64,000 bases of DNA, taken from positions 310,001 to 374,000 of the forward strand of contig JAVKOQ020000003.1 of the NCBI GenBank assembly GCA_031835245.2, read 5' to 3'. Below are positions 19,607-49,200 of this stretch, in pieces. The position numbers and the translations under genes were made by a program. The stretch is from Balamuthia mandrillaris. Lineage: Eukaryota. Within the stretch, counting starts at the first letter, position 1, and each line of letters opens with the position of its first letter. The notes under the pieces are model-generated. The model saw only the letters and a program-made list of their open reading frames with translations. It was not told where the DNA came from and did not search any database.

Positions 19607-19897
19607 TCCCTATCTTTGCTCCGCTTGTTTCTTTTTGCCTTCACTTAATAGCGGTGAGGTCAGTAACTACCAAATTTAGCTCCTTATTACGTGGGTTCAT
19701 TTTTTCACGTTTTATGCTGAATTCCAGACATACTTCACATAATTCAAATTTTTGACAAATTTTGAATGCCGATCATACCCAACATTTTTATAATTCCTCG
19801 CAAATACTTAGCATTTTCTGAATTCTCTGCATTGACTAAATAAATAATTTTTTTTTTCAGTTTGCTTCACGGAAGAAAGTTTGAAGAGCGGACGATT

Positions 19898-21903
19898 ATG
19901 AAGGCTGCCGCAACAGCCGTGGATTATGCTGCCAAGGTCAACGGCCTCTTTCCGGTGGACATCACACTGGAGGAGGCGAGGCGTGCGATCGTGGGCTTCC
20001 CCGGTTTCACTGAGAGCCGCAAAGATGATGTCATAATTTTCAACTACGACTTTTGCTTCAAGACCACCTTTCCCGACCCAAACACCGCCGAAGACGCTGA
20101 AACAGCTTATTTGAGACGAGTGAGGAGGTTTGATTCTTGTTGTGTTCCTCTTCTTGTTGTCTTATGTTGTCTTATGTTGTCTTATGTTGTTGTTGTCTTA
20201 TGTTGTTGTTGTTGTTGTTCTTGTTGTTGTTCTTGTTGTTGTTCTTGTTGTTGTTCTTCTTCTTCCTCTCCTCTCGTTTGCTTTTTGATTCTCATGTTCT
20301 TCTTGTTCTTCTTCTTGTTCTTGTTCTTGTTCTTGTTCTTGTTCTTGTTCTTCTTCTTCTTCTTCTTCTTCTTCTTCTTCTGCTTTTGCTGCTTCTTCTT
20401 CTTCTTCTTCTTCTTCTTCTTCTTCTTCTTCTTCTTCTTGTTCTTCTTCTTCTTGTTCTTCTTGTTCTTCTTCTTGTTCATTCTCAACTTTTTTTTTTGA
20501 ATGCAAATAAATAGGGAATGCCGAGGTCTCATATTCAGTGTTGAGACAGGAGAGGTCATAGCGAGAAGGTTACACAAGTTTTTCAATGTGGGAGAGCTGG
20601 AGGAGACCGAGGCTGACCGCATCGACCTTACCAGACCTCATGTCATTCTCGAAAAAATGGATGGGTTAGGCCCTTCTCCTTTCTTTCTTGGTTTCATTCT
20701 TTCTTTCTTCCTCTTATTCCTCTTTCTCTATCCGCGTCTCCTTCTCCATTTTTCATGCTTTCTTTATTGTTGCAATACCAAGCAGCTAATACCGACAAAA
20801 GATCATTAGTATCACCATTCTTGACAGGAGGGCGCCTCCGCTTCGGCACAAAAAGCGGTGTGACCGACCTCAGCGTATCCCTTGAGGAGAACTATTTGGC
20901 CAAGAGCAAGGCTCCCTACCATGACTTCTCGCAGGAGTGGATGCAAAGGGGATATACTCCTCTCTTCGAGTGGTGTTGTGTGGCGCAACAGATAGTGGTG
21001 GCTTATCCCGAGGACCTCCTCATGCTCATCTCCATAAGACACAATCGCACTGGGGCTTACGTACCTTATAAGGAGATGGTTGCCAGCGCACAAAAGTGGG
21101 GCATTCCAGTTGTATCTGCCCTCAAAGGTTCTTTGTTCTGTCTTTGGACTTCTTAAACTCGTTCGAACGTTATCATGTTCTATGTATATCTTATTTCTTT
21201 TTGTCTTTTGCTTATCTCGGCTGATATTATACCACCACCTATAATAGGTACATTGGAAGGCATTGAAAAGCTTATAGACACAGTGAAAAAGAGCGAAGGC
21301 TTGGAGGGATACGTGCTGATCTTCCAGGACAACGGCGAGATGTACAAGATCAAGAGCGAGTGGTACTTTGAGCGCAGCAAGAAGCAACCCGGCGGCGCCT
21401 TAGGCTCTCAGGAGAAGGACGTCTGGCTGTTGGCCCTGGAGAACAAGCTCGACGACATAGCCATCACCATAGGACCAGCACAACGCGAGAGGGTGGAGCG
21501 ATTCGCGGAGGAGTTATTCCTTGCGGTCGATCGAACGGCCAAGCGGATCGAGGCGGTCGTTGAGGAGGCGAGGCTAAAGGGCATCCAAGGGAAGCCAGCT
21601 TTTGTTCGCTTTGTGAGCGAGAAGAAGAAGATCAACAAGGGTCGTTATGGAAGAGGCAAGAAGGGGGTCTCGAAGCCCGAAGAGGGAGAAGAGAAGAAGA
21701 AAGAAAAAGAAGAGGCGAGCGAAGCAAAAAAAGACGATGAAGAAGAAGGAGAAGTATTCCCGGAAGTGAGTCTGTATTTTGCCTGTTGGGATGGACGTGA
21801 TGCGCTGCAGGAGGTTATTCGGCTGTTGAAGAGGGCTTGTTCTAGTCGTACGAAGCTGGACCAAGCGCGGCACCTTGCTGAAAACATTTACTTCCAGTTT
21901 TAA
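19898..21903 (+). CDS. T4 Rnl1-like ATP-dependent RNA ligase; introns 20128-20514, 20665-20801, 21128-21247
   Basis: FNY; RECRGLIF; LHKFFNVGE; motif I EKMDGSLV; FGTKSG; TPLFEW; IVVAYPED; IRHNRTGAY; motif IV EGYVL; motif V YKIKSEWYF. Confidence 0.88.
20155..20480. repeat. Intronic (TTG/TTC/TTGTTC)n microsatellite
   Basis: Directly visible tandem repeats in intron 1 of the RNA ligase. Confidence 0.95.
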
Positions 21904-22044: not shown

Positions 22045-22850
22045 ATGAGAACAAGTCGCTGCTCCTCTTTGTGGCCAACAAGTAGATCGTCCCTTCGAGT
22101 TGCCTCCTTGAGTTCTAGACACTGTTACAGCAGTTTTTCAGGGTTCGTTTTTTTTTTTTTTTTTTTGCTAAAAATCAGTTCTATCTGACTGTTGATTTTA
22201 TTGGCAAAAAACAAAAACTTCAACTGAAGGAATAAGAGATGGATTCCTTCCACTTCGGCTGTGGCTGCTGCTGCTCGCGACCACCTCGACAACGTGCCCA
22301 TGCCCAAGTATCCGGTGGTGCTATGCCATGGCCTTCTTGGCTTTGACACCCTCAACCTCTTGCCCAAAGGGCGGCTCTCCCTACCGTACTGGTGGGGCAT
22401 CGTTCACGCTTTGGAGGCCCGAGGCGTTCCCGTGTTCACTGCGCGAGTGCCGCCCACCGCTCACGTCGAGGTTCGAGCGGCACGACTCAAGGAGAGGGTC
22501 CTCCAGATCCTTAGGGAACTTCCAGCTACCACTCATGAAGGCACACGAAAAATGGATCCCTCCTCGTATGTCGTTCTTCTTTAAACTCTTCGTTTTCTCT
22601 TCGCTCCTTCTCTCGCTTTCTCTCTCGCTTTCTCTCTCTCTCTCTCTCTCTCCCCCTCCTCTCTCCTATCTCTTGTTTGACCCAATCGAATACAATCATC
22701 ATAAAACAGTATAAAGCGGGTGGAGAAAGCTGAGCCATCAACAGCTGGTTCGTTGGATCCAACACCAAAGGACGACCAAACAAACCTTTCCTTAGGGAAA
22801 GTAAACCTTGTTGGTCATTCAATGGGTGGCCTCGATGCTCGATATATGGT

Positions 22851-22893
<43 letters not shown>

Positions 22894-23503
22894 TCATCCT
22901 AAGAGTGTCTATCAGGTATCGTGTTTAGGTGGACATGAGTTTGTTAGTAGCGTAACAACGATAGGAACTCCTCATCACGGTTCTACCTGTGCAGGTTCCT
23001 TTCCTTTACTTGTTCCACATTCCATCTTCTGTCTTCCTGCTTCTTCTACTCCTTATATAACCATTTGAACAATCCTAGATTGGTTCTTGCGTTACATGCT
23101 TCGACCAGGCATGGAACGAGCCCTTAACAAACTCAACATTCCAACCGAAGCCTTCCACTGCCTTACTCCAAGCTACATGCGGGACCACTTTAACCGCAAC
23201 GTCTTGGACCACCCTTCCGTCAAGTACTATTCTTTCGGTGCTTCTCGCCATCGCTCTCAACTGCCGTTCGTTGCTCGACCTTTCTACGATGTGTTGGCAG
23301 CCGCTGAAGGAGAGAACGACGGGTTGGTAAGCTGTGAGTCGGCTCGTTGGGGAACGTATCTTGGCACTCTACGTGCAGATCATATGGAGCAGATTGGGTG
23401 GTTGACTCGCTTGTTGCCATTGCCTCAGTTGTACGACCGGCCTTATGATGCTTTGTCCTTTTATTTAGAGTTGGCTGAATTTTTGGCCAAACAAGGACAC
23501 TGA
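22045..23503 (+). CDS. Alpha/beta-hydrolase triacylglycerol lipase (TGL2-like) with probable mitochondrial targeting peptide
   Basis: PVVLCHGLLGFD; VNLVGHSMGGLDARY; TTIGTPHHGS; ENDGLVS...ARWG; ADH; Arg/Ser-rich exon 1 from ATG 22045. Confidence 0.9.
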
Positions 23504-23616: not shown

Positions 23617-26600
23617 TCAAATCAACATATCTTCCTCATCGTCGTCTTTCATGCGAGAGGCGATGCCATCTACCTTCTTCTGCAATTTCTTGAAAGCATG
23701 TTTCATCTTCAGCTCCATGTGTACCATTTGAGCATTGTGCTGCTGCAATGCTGCTGTTGCTGTCTCTATCTTTCTGTTGGTACTTACGCCTCCTCCTTCT
23801 GCTGTGGCTTCCATCTCCTCTTCTTCTGGCTCCTCATCCATGGCCTTCTTTTTGGCAATCTTCTCACCTGGGGCTTGTTGTCTGCTCAAAAGATACGCGG
23901 AGTATGGCTGACCTCCAAACCTGTAATCCGAAGCATTTCCTTTCTTCTTTGCTGCCCCTCCAGCGCTTCGGTTCATCAGGTTTCGAGCGGTGGCTGACAC
24001 TCGAGGTTGTCTTGCTGCTGGAGGGGGCACAGGTGGAACGTAATGATGGCGGCTTTGTGCGTTCAGGTCTTCGAGTTCTGTATCACTGTGGAAGAAGCCT
24101 TCCTCTTCGTCGGCGATGGATACCAAGGTTTTGCTTCTCGTCAATTTCTTGAATTTATCACTCTGTTTTATTGACAGTGTGAGAGAAAGAGAGCAAAGAG
24201 GAGAAAGGGGGAAGCGAGAACCTTGGCAGGATCGGCGTAATACATCAACACAAGGAAAGCATAGTCAAGATAGTACTCCAAGTTGGCTTTCTCAATAACC
24301 TCCGCATAAGAAGTACTTAACATAGCAATCAACAAGTTCAACAACATGATCGCTATAACAATTATGTGAGAAAACGTGAAAACAACGAAAGGAGGGAATG
24401 AAAAAGGCACAAACTTGATATGATCATGTAAATAAGGTACAACACGATAGCTCCAAAGTGAATGTCGCTGGCCACTGTGTCAAAGTCTCCATCTCCAACT
24501 GCTGTTCGAAACATGGACACCCTTTTATTTTGTCAGAAAGCAAACAATGGAAGATGCAGCAGAAAGAAGGCAAGATGAAGAAAAAGACAGGTTTGTAAAA
24601 AAGAAAAACATACATAGACCAATAAATAGCGCGATAAGACCAAACGGTGGAGCCCAACAAAAGGAACAACGCCAGGCTGAACGAGAGAATGAATACAATA
24701 AAGACGCTTCCCCACACAATCAATGCCCTTAACATCTAACAAACTAGAAATAAATTTTGTGTTTTTAAGAAAGAAGAAGACAAGCATTACCCGGCGGACG
24801 ATGATGAGCAGCACTCCCACGTTCTGATGAACACGCATAAACTTGAGCAGCTTGGCCCAGCCCAACACCAAAACTATTTGGTGTTATAGCATAGAGAATC
24901 AAGTGAAGGTCAAAAAAAAAAAGAATCGAAAAGAAGATAAAGGAGTAAGGAAGGTAACTGAAGGCGATTGTATGGAACTGATAGTCTCTGTAACGGGCCA
25001 ATCGATTAAAGCTGACAAAGTCAGTATCGTCAGCCTCCCAATCCAAGCTATCGATGATTCCGATTTCGATGAACCGGAAGATGGCCAACACGATGAAGCC
25101 CAGATATATAGTTACATCCACCGCGTTCCACCCGTTAAGGAAGTAACGACGCTTCTCAATGATTATCTGTTGTTTTTATGCAAGTTTTTCAGCATAAAAG
25201 AAGGACGAAGAAAGAAGGGAGAGAGAACCTCTTTGATTTCTATGACAACTGAGATGGCGACCCAAATGCCAATGACGATCTCCATCGCTAGCTCTGCCCA
25301 ATCTCCACTGGAGTTATACTTGCTTTATGCAGTTAAAGAAAAAACAAAGAGAACAACAGAGAGAGAGAGAGAAAGAGAGAGCGTGAGAGAGGAAGAAAGG
25401 ATATCTGTAAAGTTTGACGGTGAAGAACTCTGAAGATGGAAACACGACGCCGGCAGCTGGCATGTCCCACATGATGCGAACAACACTGAATAGGTTGATG
25501 TTTGGATTGTACACTGCCTTCAAGTCAGTTCACCGGCCTTGAAAGGCAAAGAAAGAATGAAGAGAAAGCAACAAACTCGTAAACTCGATGAAGACGCCAC
25601 GAGTCAATTCGTCCAACCAGTTGTTCTCATAAAGTTCAGATAACTTTTCGAACGTGGCGTTGGCATCTCTAGTGTTCAGAGTCACTTTATAGCCTCCCCT
25701 CTCAGGAAACAACTCTTCCAACATACTGATGAACGATTCGCTGTCTGAAGGCTCCGAATAAGTCCATCTGTAGTCCAGTGGTTCCCAAATCAAAATAGGT
25801 TAACAGAAATAAGCACAGAATGAAGAAAGCAAGCACGAACCCTTCTCCACCAGGACCGAACGTGCCTTTGGACTCGGTTTCATCGTGATCGTACTCACCA
25901 TAACATTGTCCATTCTTGGCGAGAGCTTCATAGTCATCGTTGATAAGATCGCAGGAGCCAGGTTCTACGCGAAACTGGCGGAGCTGAACTTTGTTGGTGA
26001 CCACTCGGTTGTAACGCATAATGAATGAAGACTCTGGGGAAAAGAAGTTTATGAAGAACGGTCCTGTTATCCACTATTAGGTTGTTTTTGTTAACGACAT
26101 CATTCCAGAACAAAGGTAGGAGAGAGTGAGTCAGAGAGATGAGCAAGCAGAGTGAAGAAAGGAAGAGACAACAAAAAGAAGAACGTACAGTCCATATTTC
26201 TGGTATTTGGTCGGTATCAGCAAAGAACTTTTTGAAGTTTCCAGGAGCACCCGTTCTGCTGTCGAAGGGACGATCGATGTAAAACTCCTCTCCCACCGTC
26301 CTCACTCGGATGGAGTGTTCAAAGTAGTATGCCTTCGAATGCAGGTCCGTACTCGTCAACAGCATTACTGGCAAACAGAAAAACAAGAGCTTGTTCGTCA
26401 CAAACAAATATATAACATGAGAATATCAAATAAGATACGTACTGACTGTAAACAAAACAAGAAACACGAAATAGGACGAAAAACTGAGCAAAAAACGGAC
26501 TCTGGGATGGGCCAACAAAGCTCTCCAATTTGCGGACCACCATTGTGGATTCCAGCTCAACTTAAGATCCCATGTTTTGTTCAATGTTGCTTGAATTCTG

Positions 26601-26786
26601 CGATGCTAATTGTTTCACAGTTAAAATAGGTACAGGGAAGGTAAAGGTTGGCGCAACAAGAAGAAGAACGAGTTGTTGGTACCTTCATTATAGCACCTAT
26701 TCGATTTTCAACAATGAAGAAAAGGGGAGATGTGCCTCCTGATGTCCTGTTCACAGAACACATGATGTCAAAAAAAGATTTTAAAG

Positions 26787-26852
<66 letters not shown>

Positions 26853-28280
26853 CAGAAGAATTTAACCTGGCATATTTCAGAGTGGCATTACAGTCCAATA
26901 AATGTTCGGTGATCTGCAGTGCGTCTCTGCATTGCTTCTTTGCCTTATTGAACCCCAAAAAGTCCGACTCGGAAGCTCCTTGCAACTTGTTGCGAGCTTT
27001 GTGCAGCCTCTCCAAAGCGTTGCAAAGAGGGGTGGCGTGCCGGCCGTCCAAAGGATCGACGTCAACACCGTGTTTCAACAAGAAGCGAAGTGAGTTGACC
27101 GTTCCGTATTTGGCTGCTATATGAGTTGATGTAGTATTCTTGAACGTTCTCATTTTCACTATACCAATGTTAGACCAGTGGTCGTTCGGTAGAAGAGGAG
27201 AAAAATAGGGAAACGGTACCGTTTTGGCGAGCATCAGAGATGAGGAAGCGAAGAAATTCAACATCATCAGTGCGTCTGATGGCATACAGGAGTGTTGCTC
27301 GTTTGCTCCGTTTGGTAATCGTCTCATAATCTTTTCTTTCAGGTGTTCCTTCCTATAAGCCCCAAAACGAGGAGAGGATGATAAGAAAAGAAGGAGAGAG
27401 AGAGAGAGGAGAGAGAGAAAGTGCGAACCTTTGGAACGCCACTTATGTCGATGTGGTGTTTGAACAATAAACGAGCAACCTCGAAGCCAACTTTGCATTT
27501 AATGGCAAGCGAGAGCACTGTGTGGTGCTTTGAGACCAATGAGTAAGCAATCCGAGGGACGAGAGTGAAGAAATAAAGACAGAGGAGAAACAAGAAAGAG
27601 CTTACGTGCTAATGGCATGGTCATTGTGGATTGGTTCGTGTTTAAAGAAAGCCGTGAACAGTGAAAACGGAGAACAAATAGGAAGAAGAGAAACAAAGCA
27701 CTTACATTCTAACAAGCAAACATAAAAGCAAAACAAAAGCCCGTTACAAAAAAAAAAAAAAAAAGGTTAAAAAGAGGTATTAGTGACAAGAACAAAAGGA
27801 GACTGAAACAAACATCCTGCAGTAAGGAATGAGGTGAGTTTATTGCACAAGGACGAAGAAAGAGGGAGCAAAGAAAGTTTCGTACTTCTTCTAAAATGTC
27901 GTCTTCAGAGAAGGCATCGGTGGCGAGCATCAGGTCCAACATTTCAACTCTTCCAAACTGAGCGGCTATGTGAAACGCATTTCGGCTTTCCTGTACAATA
28001 AAGTTGAAAGAAAGAACGAAAGAAACCACAAGAAAGAAAGAAAGAAACGACAAGAAAGAAAGAAAGAAAGAAACGACAAGAAAGAAAGAAACCACAAGAA
28101 ACTACAAAAAGAAACACACCTCTTTCTCAGTGAGGGCAGCCGAGCTGGCTATATCGCTGCCTTTTTTTCCTTCGTGAGCCGAAGCATCCTCTTCTTTTAT
28201 GAACTCTATAGACTGCAAACATGGAGAGAAGGAGAGAGAGAGAGAGAGAGAGAGAGGGATAAAGAGAGAGAGAGAGGAAA

Positions 28281-28324
<44 letters not shown>

Positions 28325-29239
28325 ACAACATAAAACAATGTAATAAGCGAGCAGAGAAGGAAGAGTTAAGCGAAAAGAGAGCAGAGAGACAGTGAAACGA
28401 GAGAACAGAGGAGACGAACTTTAACGCTAGGGTCAGCACCGAGGTCTAAAAGATAAGCTGCAATGTCGTCGTGGCCGTACTTGATGGCAAACTGAAGCGG
28501 CGTGTAAGCAACTGGGTTGCCTATTCCTTTTGCCAAGTGCTTAAAAAATATTTGTTGAGAACTTCGAAGAAAGCAGAGGGAGTGAACAGAGAGAGAAAGG
28601 GAGAGAAGCAAGTGAACAAAGTGGAGTGAGGATGGCGTAAAGTACCTCTCCAGGAAGGCAAGCCTAGGGAACCGGCGGCATTCAACAGCGATACGAAAAA
28701 CCAAAGCGTAAGCACAAAACAAAAAAAAGAAATAATAAAATAAGAGGCACCTGCAGGTTGATATACGCCTCGACGTCCTTAGTGTCTTCCACCAGCTCGA
28801 CCACAGCGGCAAGGTCTCCGCTTCGGACGGCAAAACAGAGGTCCATAGCTTCCGGGCTTTCATCCCAGTCCTGTACGAGAGCTCTTCTCCGGTTATGGTC
28901 CTCTGCGTTTCTGCTCTTCTTCCTGCCGATGTTTCTCAGCCGTTTTCGTCGACCGGCTCCTTTTTTGAGGGTGTTCTTCACCCTGCGGAGCCAAACGGCC
29001 GACCTTTTCAGCGGGGGACTCGCTTCGTCACCCTCATCCCCCTGGTCAACGTCCTCATCCAAGTAGGCCAGTTGGTCGGCTGAAGTTCCTCCCTCTGCGT
29101 TAGCAAGTTGTTTTGGTGGTTGTTCCGGTTCTTCGTCCATCTCGGTTTCGATATTGCTGTCTTCTGTCTCCTCTGAAAATGAATGCTGATTGGCGTCTTC
29201 TTCTCCTTCCCATATGCTGTCTTCTTCATGACTGCTCAT
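23617..29239 (-). CDS. Ankyrin-repeat + polycystin-2 (TRPP/PKD2)-like cation channel, paralog A
   Basis: Ankyrin repeats (TPLQFAIKYG, NAFHIAAQFG, HIAAKYG); TOP-domain motifs QLRQFRVEPGSC and WLDELTRGVFIEFT.YNPNINLF; pore FRTAVGDGDF; S6 MLLNLLIAMLSTSY. Confidence 0.88.
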
Positions 29240-31470: not shown

Positions 31471-34400
31471 TCACAAAAGCATTATATTTGCTTCATCATC
31501 TCCAACTCTTGACAAGACATCATCCATTTTCTTGTGCAACTTGTTGAGACTGCGTCCAATCTTTTGTTGCACACTGTCCAATTGTTTGATGGCTAGCTCC
31601 AAGTTGGCGATCTCTCCGCTCATAAGCGATGCAACTGCTCCGCCTTCTAGTTCTCTTCCTCCTTCGTCTTCATCGCCAATGATAGTGAAGCTCTCTTCTT
31701 TGTCTTTTTGTCTCTCTGTTCCATCTTTGTTGTTGGCTGAAGAGCGTATCCCTGTTGCGACGGTGTTCTTTCGTTGCACTTTAGATACTAGAATCTTGGA
31801 GTAACCATCACTGCCAAACTGAATGATGTTTCTCTCCTCCTTCTCTTTCTCTTTCCTTTTGCTCTTTCGCAGACGACTCTTGCTTCTCCCTTTGTTGTTG
31901 TCGTTAAGGAAGAAGTCACTTATGTTGCTGGAAGACCAGTCGGAAGGCGGAGGAGGGACCGGAGCTTTACATATCGCCATTTCTTCCAGCTCCGTGTCAC
32001 TGCTGTTTCCATCTCTGGAAGTTTCGTCATCAAAGTATTGCTTGCCTGCTTTCTGTTTGATAAACCTTTTGAACTTGTTATCCTTTTATGTTTTTTTTTT
32101 TTAAAAAAATTGGTAACCACGTTAGCACAATAGGAAGAATGCGTATTCTTACAAAGAGAACAAACAAGAGGCTTACCTTCGTGTAGTCTTCGTTATAAGT
32201 TAAAACGAGAAAGGCAAAGTTGAGACAGTATTCCAAGTTGGCTTTTTCGATAACCTCAGCGTAGGATGTACTCAACATAGCAATCAACAAGTTCAGCAAC
32301 ATAATACCTGTTTTAAACAACCATTGCTGTTAGATTTTATGTCATAGAAGAGAAGCAAAGACAGAGAGAACAAAATAGAGAGAGGAGAGAACGAACTGGA
32401 AATGATGATGTAAATGAGATACAGCATGATAGATCCAAAGTGAAGTTCTTGAGATGCCACATCGAAATCTCCATCTCCAGTCGCTGTACGAAACATGGTA
32501 ACCCTTTGCAAAGAGAAAGCGTGAACCTCAGGATTGCAGAAAAGAAAGAATGGGTGTTGCGTACATGGACCAATAAGTGGCACGATAGGACCACTCTGTA
32601 GAACCCAACAAAAGGAACAAAGCTATGCTGAACGAGAGAATGAACACTATAAACACGCTTCCCCACACGAATAAAGCCCTCACCATCTGTTTCGGAACCA
32701 GTTCAGCTTTTCTTTTTGTTGCATATTATCTTTTTTCTTGCAGGAAGAGAAGCAACATACCCTATTGACCACAATAAGTAGAACTCCGATGTGTTGCTGT
32801 ACTCTCAAAAACTTTAAAAGTTTGGCCCATCCCAACACCAAAACTATTTTGGTAGGCAGTATAGTTAGCAGAACATGAGGAAGAGAGAAAGAGAGATAAA
32901 GTAAAGGAGAGACAGAGAGAGACGAGAAACGGAACGCAACTCAAAGCAATAACGTGGAACTGGTAATTGCGATACCGGGCCAAACGTTGAAAGCTGACAT
33001 AGTCGGTGTCATCAGCCTCCCAATCCAGGCTGCTAACGATGCCAACCTCTATGAAGCGGAAGATAGCCAGCACCACAAAACTTACGTACATCAGAACGTC
33101 CACTGCATTCCATCCGTTCAGAAAGTATTGACGTTTCTCCACAATCACCTGCATAAATATTGTGAATATTGCGAAGAAGAAACGAGAAAAATCACCTACA
33201 ATAACAACCAATGAAGAAGACAAACAACTAACAGAAGCAACAAACCTCTTTGATCTCAATGAGAACGTAAACGGTAACCCAAATGCCAATAACGATTTCC
33301 ATTGCTAGTTCAGCCCAATCCCCAGATGATTCATATGTGGTTCGTTATTAAAGAATCTATCAACGGATAAGAACACAAAAAATGATGGAAAAAAAGAAAA
33401 GAACACAGAAAAAAGAACATGTGAAAAGGATATCTCAAAAGCTTCACGGTGAAGAACTGAGAAGAAGGATAAACAATGCCACCGCGAGGCATGTCCCACA
33501 TGATCCTTACAACGCTGAACAAGTTGATATTTGGATTGTAAACTGTGAACTCTATGACGACGGCACGTGTCATCTCGTCGATCCAGTTGTTCTCATAGAG
33601 TTCTGTCAGTTTCGTGAATGTGGCGTTGGCATCCCTTGTGTCGAGAGTCACTTCGTAGCCTCCCCGCTCAGGAAAGAGTTCTTCCAGTTTACTTATGAAT
33701 GATTCTCTGTCAGAAGGTTCTGAATACGTCCAACTGTTGTTCCGTAGAAATGATAGTAACGTTAGACAAAGCGGCCTATAAAAAGAGACAACAAAATGGA
33801 AGAATTCTCTCCTACCCTTCGCCGCCAGGACCATAAGTACCAGTGAACTCGTTCTCTTCAGAATATTCTCCATAACATTCACCGTTAACAGCCAATGCTT
33901 CATAGTCGCTCGTGGCGAGATCGCATGTGCCCGGTTCCACTCGGAATTGTCTAAGTCGCATCTTGTTGGTAACGATCCGGTTGTAGCGCATCACGAAAGC
34001 GGTTTCGGGTACAAAGAAGTTGAGATATAACGGTCCTGTTATCCACTTTATGTGCATTTATTTTTTCAGTTACCATGATCGGAAAGAAACAGGGTGACGA
34101 ACGAAAAAGGAGGTTTTCGTACAGTCCATATTTCAGGAACTTGATCAGTATCCGCAAAGTACTTCTTAAAGTCGCCTGGAGTTCCCGTTCTACTGTGAAA
34201 AGGACGATCGAGGTAAAATTGTTCTCCAACAGTTCGCACTCGCAATGATTTTTCAAAGTAAAAAGCCTCCGAATGAACATCGGTATTGGTCAACAACATC
34301 ACTGTTAATCAGAAAAGATACGGAACGGTTCAGAACTTCATACAAAGCCATTAACGCAATCGAAAGCCCAGCAATATGAAACTTACTGACAGTAAACAAA

Positions 34401-34851
34401 ATAAGGAAAGCAAAGTAGGTGAGGAAACTGAGCCAGAAACGAAACTTGGGGTGAGATAGCACATATCCCCAGTTTTCTTGCCACCAAGCAGGATAGATCT
34501 GGAGGTTGAGTCTCCAAGTTTTGTTTATCGTGCTTTGGATACTCTTGTGCTGTAATGCAAAATAGTTTAGGCTTTACGAACGAATAAAGAATGAGAAAAA
34601 GAGAGGCATTACTGTCATCAAGGAACCAATTCTTTGAGTTACTATGAAAAGGAGAGGAGACATGCCGTCCGAAGTTCTGTAGTTGACCATCGTTATTGAT
34701 ATTCATAACAAAGAACATTAGCAGAAAAAGTGACTACTTACTTTGCATATTTAACTGTGGCATTGCAATCCAGCAAATATTCTGCAATCTGGAATGCATC
34801 TCTATAACACGTTGAGGAACAAAAACCCGTGTGTGTATATATGTGTGTGTG

Positions 34852-34884
<33 letters not shown>

Positions 34885-34894
34885 ATATATGTGT

Positions 34895-34984
<90 letters not shown>

Positions 34985-37614
34985 TTCGTAACAAGAGAAG
35001 TCATACTTGCACTCTTTGTTCGCTTTTTGTAGGGCCTGTGAATCCAGTTCTTGAGCTTGCCTCAGTTTGTTTCGCATTTTTGCTAGCTTTTCCAAAGCAA
35101 GACAAAGTGGAGTAGAATAACGAATGTCCAATGGATCCACTTCCGCTCCGTTCTTCAAAAAGTAACGTAACGTATTCAGGGAACCGTATTTGGCTGCAAT
35201 GTGAGTTGGGGTAGTGTTCTTGAACGTTCGCATGTTTACTGTATTGTGTTCATTCAATCGAGTTTAAGTTAAAGAATGAAAGAGAGGAAGCAGAAAAGCA
35301 GAGGAGGAGGAGGAGGAAGAAGAAGAAACAAAAAGAATTAGAAGAACCACCGTCAAGATGCACATCGGTAATGAGGAAACGAATAAAGTCGACATCATCT
35401 AGTTTTTTAACGGCGTAAAGGAGAGTCGCTCTTTTGCTTCTTTTTGTAACTGTTTCGTATACCACTCGAGCTTGTGTATCTTCCTGATAGGTTTTGTTAG
35501 GGTTAAGCAAATAATTTTTTTTTCAAAGAGCAACGAAGTACTTGGGGAATGCCGCTTATGTTTACATCATACTGAACAAGCAACCTAGCGACCTGTGGTC
35601 CTACTTTGCCTTTAATAGCCAAAGTGATGACATTGTGATGCTGTTCACGAAAAGAGAGAGGCACTTAGTGTGGTTGAAGACTATTAGATACAGTCGGCCG
35701 AAGAAAGACGTACGTGCTATTATTCAGAAAGTGAAGCGCATTAGAATGAATAAACGATAAAGGAACAAACAGGAGCATACTTACATTCTAAGGAACGAGG
35801 TCACGTAGATAAGAGGTCATAGCAGAACAAGGAAAAGAGAAGAAAGATATAACAACAGAGGGCAGACAAAAGAAGATATTCATAAGGATAATGTGAAAAA
35901 TGCTCAAGTAGACAAAAACAGACGTACATCCTAATGAAAACGCACAAGAGTCAGTTATACTACCCACATACAAGAAACCATCCGAAAGACTGACCTCATT
36001 TAGCAAGTCCTTCTCAGCAAAGCGCTTTCCTGAGAGCATAAGCTCTATCAACTGTGCTCTTCCATATTGCGCAGCCACATGAAAAGCATTGCGACATTCC
36101 TGTTGAATGATAATAAGTGGGAAATATACAGAAAAGAAATCATAAAGAACTTCAAAAGTTATTCACCGCTTTTCTGTATCTACAACAATCATCACCAGGT
36201 CTTTTGGAAGTCGTATGTAATTGTACTTCCTCGCCTTCTACATCTTCTATGTATTCCAGAGACTGCCTTGTTTTGTTAATGTCATAAATAACAAAAGAGA
36301 ATGTGCTGTAAAGAAGCGAAAGAAGAAAGTAGAAAGAAGAAGACTTTGAAAAACAGCGAGAGAACGAAAGCAACCTTAACAAGAGGATCAGCACTAGCGT
36401 CTAGCATGAATGCCACGAGGTCGTCATGTCCATACTTAATGGCGTACTGTAAGGGAGTATATGAAACAGGATTTGAGTTGTTTCGGGACACGAACTGTTT
36501 TCCGTTCGGTTTGACGGCGGGAAAATGAGAGATGGATTAAGTTAATGAAAAAAAAAATAGAAGAAGAAGAAGAACAAGAAGAACAAGAAGAAGAAGAAGA
36601 AGAACAAGAAGAAGAACAAGAAGAACAAGAAGAACAAGAACAAGAAGAAGAACAAGAACAAGAAGAAGAACAACAACAAGAACAACAAGAAGAAGAACAA
36701 GAACAAGAACAAGAACAAGAACAATAAGAACAAGAACAAGAACAATAAGAAGAAGAACAAGAACAAGACAAGAAGAAGAACAAGAACAAGAAGAAGAACA
36801 AGAACAAGAACAAGAACAAGAACAAGAACAAGAACAAGAACAAGAACAAGAACAAGAACAAGAACAAGAACGAAGAACAAGAATGAAGAACGAAGAACAG
36901 AAGAACAGAAGAACGAACGCAAGCAAGCAAGAAAGAAAGAAACGACAAGAACAAAAGAAAGAAAACGAAAGGAAATCATAATCATAACATTACCTCTCCT
37001 GGAAGATAACACTGTGTTGGCACGAAAAAAAATACAATGAAAGAAATTTAAGTCAGAAGACGGTAACCAAAACAAAAACAAGAAGAGAAGAGAAGAAGAC
37101 AACTGAAAATACTAACTCGTTGGTTAAGAAACTTGGCAGGAGAGCCCTTCAACTCCTCCAACACTTCCACCACAGCACTCTTCTGCCCCTCTCGAATGGC
37201 CAAGCAGAACTGGTACAGTGCCGACCCTTCGGCGCTGCTTCGCAAGTGCCTGTTTTTCTTGGAAGGAGAGATCAGATGTTTCTTCCGCATGGACTCCAGC
37301 CTCAGTTTGTTCTTCCTGACACGCTCAACAAAGCCGCTCATTCGTCGCTGGCTCAGCTTGCCGCTGCGAGCGAGCGGTGGTTCTGCTCGGTGGGCATTGC
37401 CTTTGGTTTGTTGGGCTTCTTCTTTTTCTTGTTGTTGTTGTTGTTGTTGTTGTTCTTCTTCCGTTTCTTCCTCGTCGGACTCGTCGTCGGACGTATCTCC
37501 TTGGTGGTGGTGGTCTTCTTTTTTCTTTGGCTTTAGGTGGTGATGCTCACTCTCGCGTTCCTCCGAAGAGGAGTTACCAGAGGAGGACATAGCAGCGGAG
37601 CTGGACGCGGCCAT
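31471..37614 (-). CDS. Ankyrin-repeat + polycystin-2 (TRPP/PKD2)-like cation channel, paralog B
   Basis: Same motif order as paralog A: TPLQYAIKYG, TPTHIAAKYG, RLRQFRVEPGTC, WIDEMTRAVVIEFTVYNPNINLF, FRTATGDGDF, MLLNLLIAMLSTSY. Confidence 0.88.
34829..34980. repeat. (GT/AT)n plus (GA)n compound microsatellite inside an intron
   Basis: Directly visible. Confidence 0.95.
36558..36900. repeat. (GAA/CAA/GAACAA)n intronic microsatellite
   Basis: Directly visible. Confidence 0.95.
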
Positions 37615-38643
37615 CGGTGTTATATAGGCCGCAGCGGTTTGCGTCGTCTGTATTGTTTCAACAAAAAAATAAAATAAAAATTAGGCTGATGACAAACAAC
37701 AGATAACGCTCGTTAACCTCTCCGATTTTGGTCCAAGTTTTCTTGTTTCACTCATTTTCTCCTTTGTAGAAAAATTCGAACACTTTGCGTTACTCCCGTT
37801 CATTAATCAATCCTAATTAGGATCACGGAGTTAAAAATAACCATACTAGGTCAAAGGAGTTAATGAATAGATCTGATCACCCAATCATATCCGTTGGTTA
37901 ATTGATCTGTTTGTAACCGGAGAAGCTCGCAACGGTTTATGTTTTCGCTGATTTGAGCAAAGTGGGTGTGAGTTAACAGGGGCTGGTGCACTTGCCTTTT
38001 GGGCTGCGGTTGTTGCTATGGGCGGGAAGGCCCAGGCCCCTCCACGTTAAGGTCCGTGTTGCTGTGTTATGTGCGCGGAGAGGAATACGAAACAAGCGAA
38101 AGAAGAAAAGAAGAACCCAAGCGACAAAGCGGAGGTGAGCGAACTGTTCTTTTCTTTGGCTTCCTTTTTGTTTGCGGTCTTCGGGAGAGACGTGCAGCAC
38201 GCGGACGATAAGCGATGGTTCAAGTTCAAGGGGGATCTACTTTGATGCCGCTCTGAACGCACGTCCGGAGCTATATATACACGCGGCACAAGATCCCGTT
38301 CTATTGGGTGAGGCTGCGTGAGTTGAAGGCGTTTAGTGGAGAGGAGAGAGAAGTGGAGGAGTACCTGAAACCGTTTAAGAAGAAGCAGGAGGAGAGGAGG
38401 CGTCATGGTTTGGAACGAGAGGAAGAAGAGGAGGCATTCTTTCATTCGACGATGAACGTATGATGAGAATAAATGTGTGGAAGATTTAAATGCAAGTGGT
38501 TACTGGCAAATGCATTGGCGGGATTGTTGTTGTTGTTTAACCTCGGTTCGGTTGTGGATGCTCGTTCAAGCCCGTCTAAAATCGAGGAATATGAAATAGA
38601 CGTTGAGGGAGAGGGAGAGGGAGAGGGAGAACCTTGGCTAAGG

Positions 38644-39490
38644 CTACATGGATTGATTCCACCTTTTCATTCCTAGGCTGTGTTTGACGTCTCTTTGCAC
38701 AAGCACGCTGGCAGTCGATGTCAGAGAAAGGACAGGTACGTTAGGGTATCTGCGTCTGAAGAAGCGCATCTCTCGATAGTCAGCACTGAATACACTGCTC
38801 CATTTGGATGCACACTGCGCCTCGTCAAACACAACGCGACCTAGTTTGCCGTGATACAGAGTGTCCAACGAGCTCTCTATCTTGGCGAAGTATTTGGCTC
38901 TAGCAGGAGTAAGAAAGAGCACCATGATGTACGGCGTGGGGTGCGCAGCAGCAAAGAGTTTGCTGGTCTCAGCGTAGGGAAGCTGCGCGCTTAAGTGGGC
39001 TACAGGGATGCCACGACTCTGCAAGAATGCTACTTGATCATGAATGAGAGAAAGGAGAAATAACAATGGTCATTCCACGCTCACATGCTGCTGGTGTAGC
39101 TGTAGAGTGGCTACTTAAGCGAACGTGACAACAAGGAGGAGGAAAATGATGAGAGGGAGCAAACGTGATAACATAAACTTTTACCACCTGCAGAAGGCAA
39201 CAAAAGCAAACAGTCGCGCTTGGACATCGTGACGTTGATTGCCTCTCGTTGGAAAGGACGAAAGCCTTGGTGGCCAAAGAGGGTGCTATTGAGTTGTTGG
39301 ATCTGCTCTTCCCACGAGAATGCTCTCGCCCAATTCTGCTTGCACCCTACTTTTCCTTTGTCAGTTGGTGTTTCTGTGTCTGTTTTATTAGCGAGTTTCG
39401 AATGGTGAATGAATAATCCGATTCTCGCCAACACAATCGATAAATTCAAAAATTAATTGTTTTGCTTCATCGTACGAGGTTGTTCCATAA
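38644..39490 (-). pseudogene. Degenerate partial RecQ helicase copy (first RecA-like domain only)
   Basis: FGHQGFRPFQREAIN, LPSAGGKSLCYH, VFDEAQCASKWS, YPNVPVLSLTSTA; frameshift near 39048; ends at 38644 before the second domain. Confidence 0.65.
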
Positions 39491-39603
39491 AATCGTTGAT
39501 TTCATCCAACCTCGATCGTCCGCCCTCGTTCTTCCGTTAATGGCGTCCGCTTTCCAACGTAATAGATTCAATCTGACTTTTCTCAGTCTCAGTCTGCTTC
39601 TCG

Positions 39604-42724
<3,121 letters not shown>

Positions 42725-43861
42725 CCTGCTGCTACACTTTTTTTTTTTTTGTTGTTGTTGCTGGGAATCGCTGCGTTGCTTCCGTCTCCTTCTTCTTCTA
42801 CGCTTGACAATAACGTACTGGAAGATAATTTTTTTAAAACAAAAAAGCGTAGCAAAGAAAGTAGTAGTAGAATAAGCAGCGATTGCGAGAGTGGAGTGCC
42901 AAAGCAAACGGATGGAGTGAGAAATGACGATAATCTGAGTAGAGAGAAAGAAGGACATGGCCAAAAAACCTGAGAGGGAGAGGAATGAGTGAGAGAGCGG
43001 GTCGTTGTTCGACCAAACGTCCCTAAGAACGCCTGCTTTTTATTGTTCGTCGAGAGGATTGGAAAGCAAGGGTGTTGCTCGTTTACCTCTTGCCTACCAG
43101 GTGACAATTGTATCCATCACATTTTTGCATTCTCGAGAGTTATCTGGTCGTCATGAAAACGATCCAGTCTCTGAGGGATGCTAATACTATCGAGGTTATC
43201 TTTCAGTTCCTCCAGTAGTCCTCGCATGCGGTTGTCAATTCTTTTTTCCAGTTCGTCGAGTTTTGCGAAGAGATGTGCCTGCAAGAGACAGATGCCAAGT
43301 TAGAGGTCAGGAAAGATGATGTTGGGTGCAGGGTACACACGAGAGTCACATCGGCAGAAGATGGTCCCCCACCGCCAGCCCGCTGCCCTTGTTCCATCGG
43401 GGCCATCGCGCCATGAGAACCGGCGAGGTCGCTGTGAGGCATTTTGCTGTGAAAACGCACTTCCCGACGGCTGTGCACAGATGATCAAAGGAACACAAAA
43501 AGGAGCCAGAGGTTGAGTACAAAAGCAAAAACAACCTCTTGATAACAATCTACCACGCTTTATGTTTCGAGGAGTTGTTGTTAACCACTTCCTTATCTGT
43601 AGCAGATTGGTGCAGATGTCTTTCTCCCTAGTCGACACACCGAAATAGTGCTCCTCATCAGTAAGTCGTTAGCCTCCTCTATCATGCTTCTGTAGAATGG
43701 GAAGGGAGGAGGGTGCCCAAGTCTTTAAACTTCGCACGAAGACCTTGGGGACTGGTAGGAAAACAAACAAACACGCACAAAAGAAATTCTGCTCCGTTAC
43801 CCTGCACGCAAGGAGAAAATGAGGTCGCTGTGAGGCGACGGTTTATTCTCTTCTCCTCTTT

Positions 43862-45824
43862 TCAAGATAAGATACAAGAAGAAGAAGAAGAAGAAGAAGA
43901 AGAAGAAGAAGAAGAAGAAGAAGAAGAAGCAAAGCTGGAAGAAGAAGAAAAAGAAGAAGCTGAAGAGGACGAACCAGCAGAAGAAAACCCGGGAGCGAGA
44001 ACAGAGGGCCTGAAGGTAGCTGCATGCCCGGCGTGGGGATTTGAAGCTGTGGATGAACGGTATGATGTTCCTTTTTGCTTCTTGGTGTAACTGGGGTTCG
44101 CAAAGAAGCTCACCAGAAACTCTGGGTAGGCATAGTCATCCCTGCAACTGACAAAGATAGATGGATTCCTTTCGTCATCCACCATCGATTCATGCTCCAC
44201 GAAGTTCCTTTGTTTTGGTTTAGGGACCTTCATGCCATGCACTCCAAGATGGTACTCCCCCGTCAACACTCGGGCCAAGAACATATGTTGAATGCCCTCC
44301 TTGTCTGGAACGGAGTAGCCGGTATTGGCGGAGTAGGATGCATCACGGGCAAAGTAAACGCCATCACCGTAGGCCTGCCGCTCTCCAAACTGTCGGAGGA
44401 AACCCTGTTGCATGATCTTGAGGAGGTTTTCTTTTGCTGTGCCATGCCACAGTCGCCGCTCGTAACGTATGCTTGTATCCCCTCCTTCGTTTTGGGCATA
44501 AGAAATAATAAGAAAAATAATATTCACAATCAAAGGAGCGAAATGGAACCAGGAAAAAAAAAAAAAACAGAGCGAGAATAGACAAGGAGAGGAGCAAGAC
44601 AAATAGAAAGAGAAAGATACCTTTTTTGACGTATTGGCTCAAATGGAACTGATATGCTTCCCACCTGACAGCGCACTGGACAGACGTAATAGAATGAATG
44701 AAATACTTGTCCCAAGAGACGGTTGCATAAAACAAGCCAGCCACTTCCTGGTACAGTGGATCCTCTGGAGATAGTAAGACTCTTTTGACTTCCGCCAGAT
44801 CTTTTCTCGGCACCCAAAAGTCTGGTAAGGCAATGGGAACGGAAGAACAGGATTGTTGTTGCGGGTGTCGCCTTCTCACAGGACGCCTTTTCTTGGTCAT
44901 AAGGTTGATTTGGCACATCACAGAGGGATGTACAAAGACCTGGTAGGCGTTCTCGCCAGCGGAAAGGCACACACACTGAAGGCTGCGCTCCTGGTGGGCC
45001 GCCTCTAACTTTTGGTTGTCTTCAGGAAGATAAGGATTCCACAGGCCATAGTCATCTTGCCATTCCCAAATTATAGTTGAGGAAGAAGATGAAGCAGAAG
45101 TGTTGGAAGAAGAAGCAGCAAAAGCAGAAGAAGAAGAAGAAGAAGAAGAAGAAGAAGAACAAGAAGAACAAGAAGAAGAAGAAGAACAAGAACAAGAAGA
45201 AGAAGAAGAACAAGAACAAGAAGAAGAAGAAGAAGAAGAAGAAGAATTAGATGAAGCCGACCCGCCAGTAAGCGCGTCCTTGATCTGTTCCACAGCATCA
45301 CGAACGACCTCAGGAGATCCCCGTACGAACGCCTTCTGTTTTGCTCTGTTGATGAAGATACCTGCACCGCTGCTCTCTTGGATTTCCCTGGCCAATGCGA
45401 AGCCCTTCTCAGCAAAAACTTCTACCAGGTCTCCCAGAAATACGATTTGAGCAATGGCCTCTTTTTTCTGCATAGCTGGCGTAGCACCACCTTCTCCAAA
45501 TGTTAAAGAATAGTACCAGCCATTGGAAGGAGGAAAGTAAAAGAGACCTGACGATTGAGCAACTGGGGGAGTAAGTGACGAGGAGGCCACTTGTTTAAGC
45601 AGTCCTACAGCAATAGTAACAGTGTCAGGGGTTCCAACCACCACAGCCATTTGCCTCTCTTGTACGATTATGATGTTGTATGCTCCAGATCGTTTCTTTA
45701 TGTCTTTGGTCATCCGGAACCTACGTTCAGAAAGCTTGTTCACAGCTTCCTTCGACAATTGTACCCTCTGCTTGACCTTTTTCGTTCCACCTTCAACTGC
45801 ACTTGCGGCGGTTGCAGCAGACAT
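43862..45824 (-). CDS. Mono-ADP-ribosyltransferase (PARP12/14/TIPARP-like) with 2 KH-like domains, WWE and PARP catalytic domain
   Basis: KH-like KDIKKRSGA...VVVGTPDTV and REIQESSGA...VRGSPEVV; WWE WEWQDDYGLWNPY...RRPVRR; catalytic LWHGT, YGDGVYFARDASYS, MFLARVLTG, SIFV, YPEFLV. Confidence 0.9.
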
Positions 45825-46225
45825 TCTTGGTGCCCTTTGCTGCTTGCTCGTAGCTCTGCCTGTTAGTAGAAAGAAATAAGGAAAGAATAAACGAGAGATA
45901 AAGATCCTCAGGCAGATGTGTTTTGTTCTGGACACAACTTCAAATGAATGAATTTTGCCGAAAATAGTCCCATCCCAGGAAATGAATGAACACAGACCCA
46001 TTTTTGTCTCGCTCGTTTCTTTGCTGCAGCAAAGAAATTTAAAAAATAATAATAACAAAAAAAAATAAAAAAACATTGGTTTAAACCAGAACAAAAAACA
46101 AAAGACTGTATATATGGATATTTCCAAAAATAAAATAAAATTAAAAACAATGCCATTTACAATGAGAACAAATAGAGGTGCAATGCATGGGCAGTAAAGA
46201 AACAAACCTGCACAGAGCGTCACTA

Positions 46226-49200
46226 TCACTTGTTGCGAGACCTCCCTCCTTTTTGGACTCTGCCAGACTTTAGTGTGTGTTTCTTTTTGCCTTTCTTGGC
46301 CTTAACGTGCAGCAGGAGAGTCGCGAGGATCTTGGGGTCGTAGTCCTGTCTGCTGTTGGTGTACCGCCTCGCTTCTTCCAGGCATTTGTGCTTGGACTTG
46401 TCACCATTCACAGTGACTCCGCTTTCCAGCAGCAGCTCAACCCACTCCAATGAACCGAGCTTCACGGCAAGGAGCAATGGTGTTGAACCCCCTTTTGATG
46501 TCACCAAATCAGTACCCCAGAGAGCGAGAAGGAGAAGCAAAGGTAGAAAGGAAGAGAAAATGAAGGAGAAAGAGCGATAGAGAAGCAGCACACCTCGGAC
46601 AGTTACAAGAGATAATCCACATTCCACACTTTTTTGATAGAGTTGATAGGGCGGAGTGTCATAACGCGAGATCATATCAAACACAGGGTTATAATTGTCA
46701 CACAGGTTAGGGTCGGCCCCCCATTCCAATAAGAGCATTGCGATGTTGGTTTGTTGGCATTTAATGGCCAGCTGATATGGAGAACAGACTATCGTGTCAC
46801 TGTGGTAGGTTTGACCTGGTGAATAGAATGAACCCTCTTTTAACACATTGGGCGAAAAGCCGCGTTTCAAGAGATGTCGAACAGCTTTATGGGAGCCTGA
46901 AGAAACTGCCTTGAAATGGGATTGTGTCAATTACTAAAATATGCAGGAAGATAAAAGGAAGGTGGAGAAGAAAGGTTACCTCATGCAAAGGCCATGGATG
47001 AGTAACATCATCTGTACCAAAAACGGTGCACCTGTCTAACATTCTCAAATAGCGGTCATGGCCAGCTGCTGCTGCCGCTGCATAAACGCGTAGATCTGCC
47101 ACAGCACCCAACTCAAGGCAACAGCGAGCCAACTGGATGTTATTATGACGAATTGCGCGTTCCAACAGAGTTTTGGCTTCGCTCAAGTCATTGCGGTTAC
47201 CAACGTCGAGAATATCAACGTCCACTCCGAACCGCTCTACCAAGGAGATAACCTCTTCGGTAGACGGCAAGCCACCCAAGCCGTTGAGCACAGTAAGAGA
47301 AATGTCCAGTGAGCCACGTAGAAGGTTGTAACCCCCATCCAGGATGAGGAACGAGAGGCGGCTGTTGGAGTTGAGCGATGCAGACTGAATGAAGCGTATG
47401 AGGTCTTCGTTGTCTCGCGAGTAACAGGTCAAAGAAAGATTGACCAGTTGAGGACATACACTCAACGAAAGCGAATCGTCTGCACATTTTTGTTTTTGAA
47501 GGTAGAGTAGGGAAGCAGCAAAATATGGAAAGAGCGAAAGTACACATCAAACGAGAGAGACAGTATAGGAGAGAGGAGAGAAGAGAGAGGAGAGAGGAGA
47601 GAGGGAGAGAGAGGGAGAGAGGGAGAGGAGAGAGAGGGAGAGAGGAGAGGAGAGAGGAGGAGGAGAGAGAGGGAGAGGAGAGGAGAGAGAGGAGAGAGAG
47701 GGAGAGAGAGGAGAGAGAGGAGAGAGAGGAGAGAGAGGAGAGAGAGAGGAGAGAGAGGAGAGAGAGGAGAGAGGGAGAGAGGAGAGAGAGAGGGAGAGGA
47801 GAGAGGAGAGAGGAGAGGAGAGAGAGGAGAGAGGAGAGAGAGGAGAGAGAGAGAGGAGAGAGGAGAGAGGAGAGAGGAGAGAGAGAGAGAGGAGAGAGGA
47901 GAGAGGAGAGAGGAGAGAGGAGAGAACGTACCAGAATATTGAATCTGGGGGTTATTGCTCATCAACAAAGTTTCCAAGCTAGAGCACTGGCTAAGGAGAG
48001 CCTTCAAAAGGGAGTTGTCAAGATCGCATCTAGAGACGTTGAGAAAGCGAAGCCCAGCAAACTTCTCTATCAGGCCCAATGCACGCTATTCGGTCATTTG
48101 TCAAATGACGTGAGTTCGAGAAAACAATCAATTGCAGAAGGAAGAATAAACAAGAATTGAAGGAAAAGGAAGAGATAAGAAGAAAAAAGGCGGAAGAGAC
48201 GAATGGTGCTTATAAAAAAAAATAATAAACAAACCGGCGAAGCAATGGCAGGCTGATTGACCAGAGAGAGCTTTCGAAGTTTGCAAGAAAAATCGAAATG
48301 CTGCAACAGCTCACACAAATCAGACACATCCAGCTGAATGGCTTTAGGAAGATGAAGCTCTTCTATGAAACGAAGGGAATCTTTGGCATGCTTTGCAAAT
48401 CTTAATAATAGAATTGAATGGGGATTTGCAAAGAAGAGCTTTTGGTTGGCTTCGCTTTGGAGAGCTTCAAACTCATCTTCAAGTTGCTTTTGTCATAGCA
48501 ACAACAACAGCGATTAACATAAAACATATGGAGGAGAGAGCACAAAGCAGGGACAAGAGAGGAGAAAGCTGAGGCGAGACTAGAGAGGGAGAAGAGGGCG
48601 AGATTAGAATGGTTCTACGAACTGATTGTGTTCCTTTGCTCGTTTGTTTGGCTTGTCGTTGCGTCTTTCTTCGCATTGATAAAACTAAATGTTAACAATA
48701 ACATTAGCATTCGTCTTCTTCTTCTTCTTCGTTCTTCTTAAGTTTGGGAGGGAGCAAGAGAGAAAGAGAAAGCGAAAGAGAAACCTTCATATTTGGAATA
48801 GCCTTCACGAAGGAGAGCCGCCTCACGCTCTTCCTGCTCTTCTTTGACCTTTTCCTGTTCCCTAGAAGCTCGTAGCAGGCGTTCTTGCAACTCTTCCTTT
48901 TGTTCGTGTAGCCACAGCTCCTTCTTACGCGCTATGTGCTTGTTCCATTTTAACTTGTTCAGGTCAAGTCTTGTGGGTTTGTGGTTCATCAGCTTCTCCG
49001 ACAACAGAAAACAACAACGAAAGAAAAGCGAAGAAACTTTTACTTTGTCCACAACTCGGGAAACGACCGAACAATGTCTCGCCAAGAGCGACACACGGCA
49101 CAGAGCAGCGGTTGCTCGTCGATAGGGTCCATCTCCTGGAAGATTCGCACCCACACTTCCACCGGCAGCCACGGCCCTTGTTGCACCCCCTCGCCCATCG

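What the first reader, a model, noticed from the sequence alone, without database searches (positions are those of the whole stretch)
35641..35995. The same GAT/AAT/CAC microexon triplet is conserved in paralog B
Seen on the minus strand after DLLNE: ttag|GAT|gtacgt (35928-35930), ttag|AAT|gtaagt (35785-35787) and atag|CAC|gtacgt (35714-35716), then HHNVITLAIK. The introns (64, 140, 68 and 73 nt) show no evident similarity to paralog A, yet the three codons, their order and their splice signals are kept. This internal comparison indicates purifying selection on the microexons and makes chance very unlikely.
Basis: seen in the sequence. Interest (0 to 1): 0.88.

Follow-up and report, generated by a model that had tools for sequence, protein, structure and literature searches.

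The report
Three one-codon exons in a row
Two neighbouring ion-channel genes of the amoeba Balamuthia each carry three successive three-base pieces between short introns; RNA reads show all three spliced into the message of one gene, the other gene likely does the same, and the public gene models miss them.

Summary
Confirmed. Paralog B (minus strand) has ag|GAT|gt, ag|AAT|gt and ag|CAC|gt at the stated places, with introns of 64/140/68/73 nt; paralog A has the same triplet. Both encode ankyrin-repeat, polycystin-2-type channels; NCBI labels the B protein Balamuthia mandrillaris. Two of two RNA reads crossing the site in A carry all nine bases, possibly one molecule, and three 3-nt exons are the only way to build them. 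No read crossed B, so B rests on the identical layout despite near-saturated synonymous divergence and unalignable introns. The identical codons alone are weak evidence (about 0.2 by chance). All four public A/B models examined lack the full triplet. Likely mechanism: intron definition across short introns, removed one after another, mostly included; residues D-N-H fall in an ankyrin hairpin loop. Closest in print: alternatively spliced codon-sized exons of truffle NACHT-ankyrin genes (tens of exons). This scan noted longer one-codon arrays in other genomes, several without RNA data. New here: a short, fixed, paralog-conserved run in an amoebozoan, with direct if thin RNA support.

The parts
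35995..36099 (-). Paralog B, exon upstream of the triplet (ends ...DLLNE, phase 0)
   Evidence: matches the public model P0001
35931..35994 (-). B intron 1 of the block, 64 nt, GT-AG
35928..35930 (-). B microexon 1, GAT (Asp)
   Evidence: homologous exon seen in RNA for paralog A
35788..35927 (-). B intron 2, 140 nt, GT-AG
35785..35787 (-). B microexon 2, AAT (Asn); the 13-nt context is identical in A
35717..35784 (-). B intron 3, 68 nt, GT-AG
35714..35716 (-). B microexon 3, CAC (His)
35641..35713 (-). B intron 4, 73 nt, GT-AG
35542..35640 (-). Paralog B, exon downstream of the triplet (starts HHNVITLAIK)
   Evidence: one RNA read covers it up to 35614
31471..37614 (-). Host gene B: N-terminal ankyrin repeats + polycystin domain + PKD channel; 1220 aa with the triplet and the missed 18-nt exon restored (U12 intron not yet corrected)
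27814..27816 (-). Paralog A microexon 1, GAT
   Evidence: in RNA reads
27706..27708 (-). Paralog A microexon 2, AAT
   Evidence: in RNA reads
27606..27608 (-). Paralog A microexon 3, CAC
   Evidence: in RNA reads
23617..29239 (-). Host gene A, tandem paralog, 58% identical to B

Best explanation
Both paralogs carry three consecutive 3-nt pieces between four ordinary short introns; RNA shows all three spliced in for paralog A, paralog B likely does the same, and the spliceosome likely manages this by recognising each intron on its own and removing them one after another. Shown: the sites, their conservation, the nine bases in A's mRNA, and that only a 3+3+3 split can supply them. Inferred: (1) inclusion in B; (2) intron definition, since the introns are 64-140 nt, like the genes' other introns, and a 3-nt exon cannot hold acceptor- and donor-side complexes at once; each removal lengthens the exon next to the following intron, much like recursive splicing that leaves one codon behind at each step; strong donors behind the microexons would guard against skipping; (3) inclusion is the main, probably constitutive form; (4) D-N-H supply the beta-hairpin loop before an ankyrin repeat (the Asp five residues before the TPLH-equivalent); (5) the layout predates the A/B duplication.
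For: table 5c: run X17, joint 27527 to 27885 with 8 letters between, 2 reads; with the base at 27885 these read GAT AAT CAC, and laid bases plus inserts sum to exactly 2 x 150. The flanks differ too much for these reads to come from B (39 of 68 and 55 of 90 bases alike). The nine-mer is absent from the window, and the only AG/GT(GC)-bounded decomposition in either paralog is 3+3+3. Shuffle and background counts. Ordinary introns: median 79.5 nt, 33 of 34 at or below 207 nt, against 354/358 nt for the merged introns of the public models. 5 of 6 microexon donors rank at or above the 82nd percentile of the 34 ordinary donors. An ankyrin profile from 335 unrelated repeat pairs scores A highest with all three residues (22.7 bits, best of 8 combinations; 17.7 with none) and puts the Asp on the consensus D. 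Short flanking introns free microexons from extra factors in C. elegans (PMC8378409, passages); steric exclusion and ordered removal are discussed in PMC10250204 (passages).
Against: RNA support is 2 reads from one run that may be the two mates of one molecule; 0 of 8 reads laid on B crossed the site; only 3-5 in 100 of each run was read. Two reads cannot give an inclusion rate. The ankyrin profile does not separate the 8 B variants (16.0-16.6 bits, junction not aligned). Repeat spacing is 37 with the triplet and 34 without, while 33 is typical (283 of 364; 34 in 35, 37 in 1), so spacing alone does not demand the three residues. A's GAT donor is weak (26th percentile). All four public A/B models seen lack the full triplet (three skip it; P0002 takes Asp and runs on into the intron). 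Splicing order was not tested.
Confidence: 0.75

Rival explanations
1. A regulated cassette: each codon can be skipped on its own, giving up to eight in-frame versions of the ankyrin loop, as described for truffle NACHT-ankyrin genes.
For: All three exons are phase 0 and one codon long, so any subset keeps the frame; A's GAT donor is weak; the truffle precedent is in ankyrin-containing genes (PMC4986451, PMC13449251, passages).
Against: 2 of 2 crossing reads have all three; residues and order are the same in two old paralogs, which fits fixation better than diversification; the run is only three exons long; all three together fit the ankyrin profile best in A.
Confidence: 0.17
2. The triplet is spliced in A but has become vestigial (mostly skipped) in B, as the public model has it.
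For: No B read crosses the site; the public B model skips it; the profile test is blind for B.
Against: B keeps all three codons, all AG/GT and three strong donors (88th-94th percentile) while the introns have lost all likeness to A; unused sites would have decayed. The public A models miss the triplet too, although RNA shows it.
Confidence: 0.05
3. The sites are chance matches or zero-length recursive (ratchet) sites, and the nine bases in the reads are an artefact or come from elsewhere.
For: Only 2 reads; donors in these genes are degenerate.
Against: The insert equals the three predicted codons in genomic order; no contiguous copy exists in the window; shuffle rates of 26 and 2 in 20000; ratchet sites leave no bases (PMC13149111, passages).
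Confidence: 0.03

Closest known systems
Codon-sized mini-exons of Tuber melanosporum nank (NACHT-ankyrin) genes (Iotti et al. 2012, not read; seen as cited in passages of PMC4986451 and PMC13449251)
   Same: Runs of one-codon exons in an ankyrin-containing gene of a eukaryote.
   Different: There: tens of exons, extensive alternative splicing, an expanded NLR family, read as diversification. Here: three exons, same residues in two old paralogs, an ankyrin/polycystin-2-type channel, an amoebozoan, and the only reads show full inclusion.
Conserved, unannotated ultra-short plant microexons (1-nt APC11 and VPS55; adjacent 5+12 nt pair in peptidase M1; PMC8831610, PMC11096116, passages)
   Same: Conserved, usually included, missed by annotation, flanked by strong donors.
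   Different: Single exons or a pair of longer ones; no three 3-nt exons in a row in the passages seen.
Isolated 3-nt exons of animals and fungi (mouse Ncam, Drosophila troponin T, PMC8042270 passages; RPS24 3/18/22-nt trio, abstract starts in listing; 27 three-nt exons in 26 Coprinopsis genes, PMC12230235 passages)
   Same: One-codon exons removed by the ordinary spliceosome.
   Different: One 3-nt exon per site; the animal examples cited are alternatively spliced.
Recursive splicing at zero-nucleotide AG|GU sites (PMC13149111, passages)
   Same: Stepwise removal of what looks like one intron.
   Different: Each step here leaves a codon in the mRNA, and the introns are short.

Membership tests
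Spliceosomal microexons | Internal exon of at most 30 nt bounded by AG and GT | tested here: met
Spliceosomal microexons | Present in mature mRNA (paralog A) | tested here: met
   2 of 2 crossing reads, possibly one molecule; unique 3+3+3 decomposition
Spliceosomal microexons | Present in mature mRNA (paralog B, the finding itself) | tested here: inconclusive
   0 of 8 laid reads cross the site; inferred from conservation
Tuber-type codon-sized exon diversification cassette | Consecutive one-codon exons | tested here: met
   three in a row
Tuber-type codon-sized exon diversification cassette | Tens of such exons in a NACHT-ankyrin NLR | tested here: not met
   three exons; Pfam finds ankyrin, polycystin and PKD channel domains, no NACHT
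Tuber-type codon-sized exon diversification cassette | Extensive alternative inclusion | tested here: inconclusive
   2 of 2 reads include all three; too few to exclude skipping
Zero-nucleotide recursive splice sites | AG directly followed by GT, nothing retained | tested here: not met
   three bases between AG and GT, retained in RNA
Polycystin-2 (TRPP)-type channel (host gene) | Polycystin domain followed by PKD channel domain | tested here: met
   PF20519 E 4e-27 and PF08016 E 2e-25, above cut-offs; channel activity not testable here
Intron-definition, ordered splicing (mechanism) | Defined order of intron removal around each microexon | not testable with these tools
   no nascent or long-read RNA was laid

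The most novel reading that the evidence does not exclude
The triplet is a regulated one-codon-at-a-time switch that tunes the ankyrin hairpin of a polycystin-2-type channel (up to eight loop versions), and ankyrin hairpins are a recurrent site for codon-sized exon runs in fungi, animals and now Amoebozoa.
Probability: 0.15. Interest if true: 0.78.

Novelty: new variant of a known kind. Interest (0 to 1): 0.56.

Why it matters
Three 3-nt exons in a row leave no room for exon definition at three successive sites, so the locus is a compact natural test of how and in what order the spliceosome handles minimal exons, and there are two diverged copies to compare. It extends one-codon exon runs to Amoebozoa (no paper with both 'balamuthia' and 'microexon'; none of the 25 listed amoebozoan papers mentions microexons). 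It gives direct RNA support of a kind that several similar arrays noted by this scan lacked. It also shows that short in-frame exons are dropped silently from public gene models of this organism.

Tried and rejected
No whole genome is held, so no genome-wide count of such sites and no DNA for the third paralog. RNA lay on B: 8 reads from 2 of 3 raw-read runs, none crossing; one contig set laid nothing. Lay on A: one run and one contig set gave nothing, one run gave 2 reads away from the site. Orthologs outside Balamuthia: three word-index searches, one representative search (best 150 of 7147 seen) and one metagenome scan (59 loci) gave generic ankyrin or PKD hits; P0069 begins just after the site; L017 is an ankyrin-rich channel transcript without close likeness to this family (TRPA1-like by my recall); Cyanophora P0005 matches the region only weakly and was not aligned further. 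A candidate 3-nt exon TCA at 26443-26445 is the end of an ordinary exon. Codon identity as evidence of nucleotide-level constraint: rejected (about 0.2). Ankyrin spacing as proof of inclusion: rejected (37 with, 34 without). No structure was predicted, as only models lacking the triplet could be submitted. The fasciclin I paper was not held. In one search, 8 of 42 junctions were left out of the 'ordinary intron' set (the microexon block, two U12-type junctions, one intron holding a missed exon).

Full report
Observation. About 8 kb downstream a tandem paralog (A) has gcag|GAT|gtttgt, ttag|AAT|gtaagt and ttag|CAC|gtaagc at 27816, 27708 and 27608, with introns of 69, 105, 97 and 78 nt.

The host genes. 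One exon of B finds a single protein at 100% identity, labelled Balamuthia mandrillaris by NCBI (P0001). Pfam gives ankyrin repeats, a polycystin domain and a PKD channel. P0153 maps exactly onto A; P0002 and P0152 are further versions of A, and P0003 is a third paralog. None of the four A/B models has the full triplet: three join the flanking exons directly, and P0002 takes the Asp and runs into the intron. No whole genome is held.

Chance. Three spaced YAG-NNN-GT sites appear in 26 of 20000 dinucleotide shuffles of the B interval and 2 of 20000 of the A interval; none lies in 2090 nt of interior of the 34 ordinary introns (8 of 42 junctions set aside: the block itself, two U12-type junctions, one intron with a missed exon). 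The expectation for the three exact sites in order in B is about 2e-8. Across the window, 5 of the 6 YAG-NNN-strong-donor hits are these exons. The paralogs are old: 674 of 1157 residues identical, 73 of 186 fourfold codons identical, and the four intron pairs align no better than shuffles. Twofold codons are identical in 156 of 267 cases, so three identical codons are no evidence of a nucleotide-level constraint; the conserved position, phase, order, residues and AG/GT are.

RNA. Raw reads of three RNA runs under the species label of the best DNA holders were laid. On B, 8 reads landed and none crossed the site; the nearest ends at 35614. On A, 2 reads of run X17 join 27527 to 27885 with 8 letters between. 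With the base at 27885, which doubles as the intron's first G, they read GAT AAT CAC on the gene's strand; laid bases plus inserts come to exactly 300, i.e. two 150-nt reads, and the flanks are too unlike B for the reads to be B's. These are 2 of 2 crossing reads; they start at different places but may be mates of one fragment. The nine-mer occurs nowhere in the window, and the only chain of AG/GT(GC)-bounded pieces that gives it is 3+3+3, in A and in B. So the triplet is shown in mRNA for A and inferred for B.

Protein context. With D-N-H the Asp sits five residues before the TPLH-equivalent, where 44% of 335 unrelated ankyrin repeat pairs have D. A profile from these pairs scores A best with all three residues (22.7 bits, best of 8; 17.7 with none). 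For B it does not align across the junction and is uninformative (16.0-16.6 bits). Repeat spacing is 37 with the triplet and 34 without, against a mode of 33 (283 of 364), so spacing does not by itself require inclusion. No ortholog outside Balamuthia covers the site.

Mechanism (inferred). The four introns have the ordinary size for these genes (median 79.5 nt) and for the organism (average 113 nt; 10.1101/2025.02.25.640156, passages). Exon definition across three bases is held to be sterically impossible, and short flanking introns let microexons be spliced by intron definition (PMC8378409, PMC10250204, passages). The simplest model is that each intron is recognised on its own and removed in turn, each step lengthening the exon beside the next intron. 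Five of six microexon donors rank at or above the 82nd percentile of ordinary donors, which would favour use over skipping; A's GAT donor is the exception. The order of removal and the inclusion rate were not measured. I put 0.75 on mainly constitutive inclusion in both genes, 0.17 on a regulated cassette, 0.05 on decay in B and 0.03 on artefact; about 0.92 that B's three exons are used.

Comparison. Single exons of 1-3 nt are known in plants, fungi and animals (PMC8831610, PMC12230235, PMC8042270, passages), and adjacent pairs in plants (PMC11096116, passages). Runs of codon-sized exons are in print for the truffle NACHT-ankyrin family, with tens of alternatively spliced exons (Iotti et al. 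2012, not read; cited in passages of PMC4986451 and PMC13449251). That lead came from this scan's earlier notes, which also list longer one-codon arrays in other genomes and a 12-3-3-6 run in an animal ankyrin gene; I did not test those notes beyond the truffle citation. This locus shares the structure but fails the truffle family's features (no NACHT, three exons, fixed residues). Searches for a Balamuthia or amoebozoan report found none: 0 papers; 25 of 508 listed, none mentioning microexons; others (23 of 28 listed; 4) showed no title or abstract start on three consecutive 3-nt exons. These were listings, most subscription papers are not held, and bioRxiv supplements with a newer curated annotation were closed.

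Verdict. A real gene structure, correctly seen and correctly read: a new variant of a known kind, with thin but direct RNA support from the sister paralog. Interest 0.56.

Noticed in passing
window 36994-37011 (B) and 28646-28663 (A), minus: A conserved 18-nt exon (CYLPGE / ACLPGE) missing from the public models of A and B; B's model also drops the first 16 codons of the next exon (36494-36447). The model of the third paralog has the same six-residue gap. No RNA check.
   Followed up: partly
window 33337-33433 (B) and from 25404 (A), minus: U12-type intron (donor ATATCCTTT, branch-point-like TTCTTTAA) at the same place in both paralogs: AT-AC in B; in A it ends AA (25320) or AG (25323). Both public models splice this spot wrongly. 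U12 consensus recalled, not from a call.
   Followed up: partly
P0003 (NCBI KAL6075621.1, not in the window): Third Balamuthia paralog; its model carries about 35 residues of intron-like text exactly at the microexon site, then HYHTVMSL, one residue longer at the start than the A/B exon, as if the third codon were fused to the downstream exon. DNA not available.
   Followed up: partly
window 34802-35006, minus: A microsatellite-filled 205-nt intron in B that A lacks: an intron gain or loss since the duplication.
   Followed up: no
P0001/P0153; P0005: N-terminal ankyrin repeats joined to a polycystin-2-type channel; a Cyanophora protein also matches both parts. Animal polycystin-2 has no ankyrin repeats (recalled).
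   Followed up: partly
P0069 (HLD77916.1): A 345-aa fragment labelled 'archaeon' on a 1037-nt contig is 30% identical to this family over the ankyrin-to-membrane stretch; probably a eukaryotic sequence under a wrong label.
   Followed up: no
window about 38640-42240 minus; 19840-21900 plus; 22200-23500 plus; 43860-46930 minus: From the ORF list, by recalled motifs only: a RecQ-type helicase region that seems to hold two helicase-like parts, an RNA-ligase-like gene, a lipase-like gene and a PARP/WWE-like gene.
   Followed up: no
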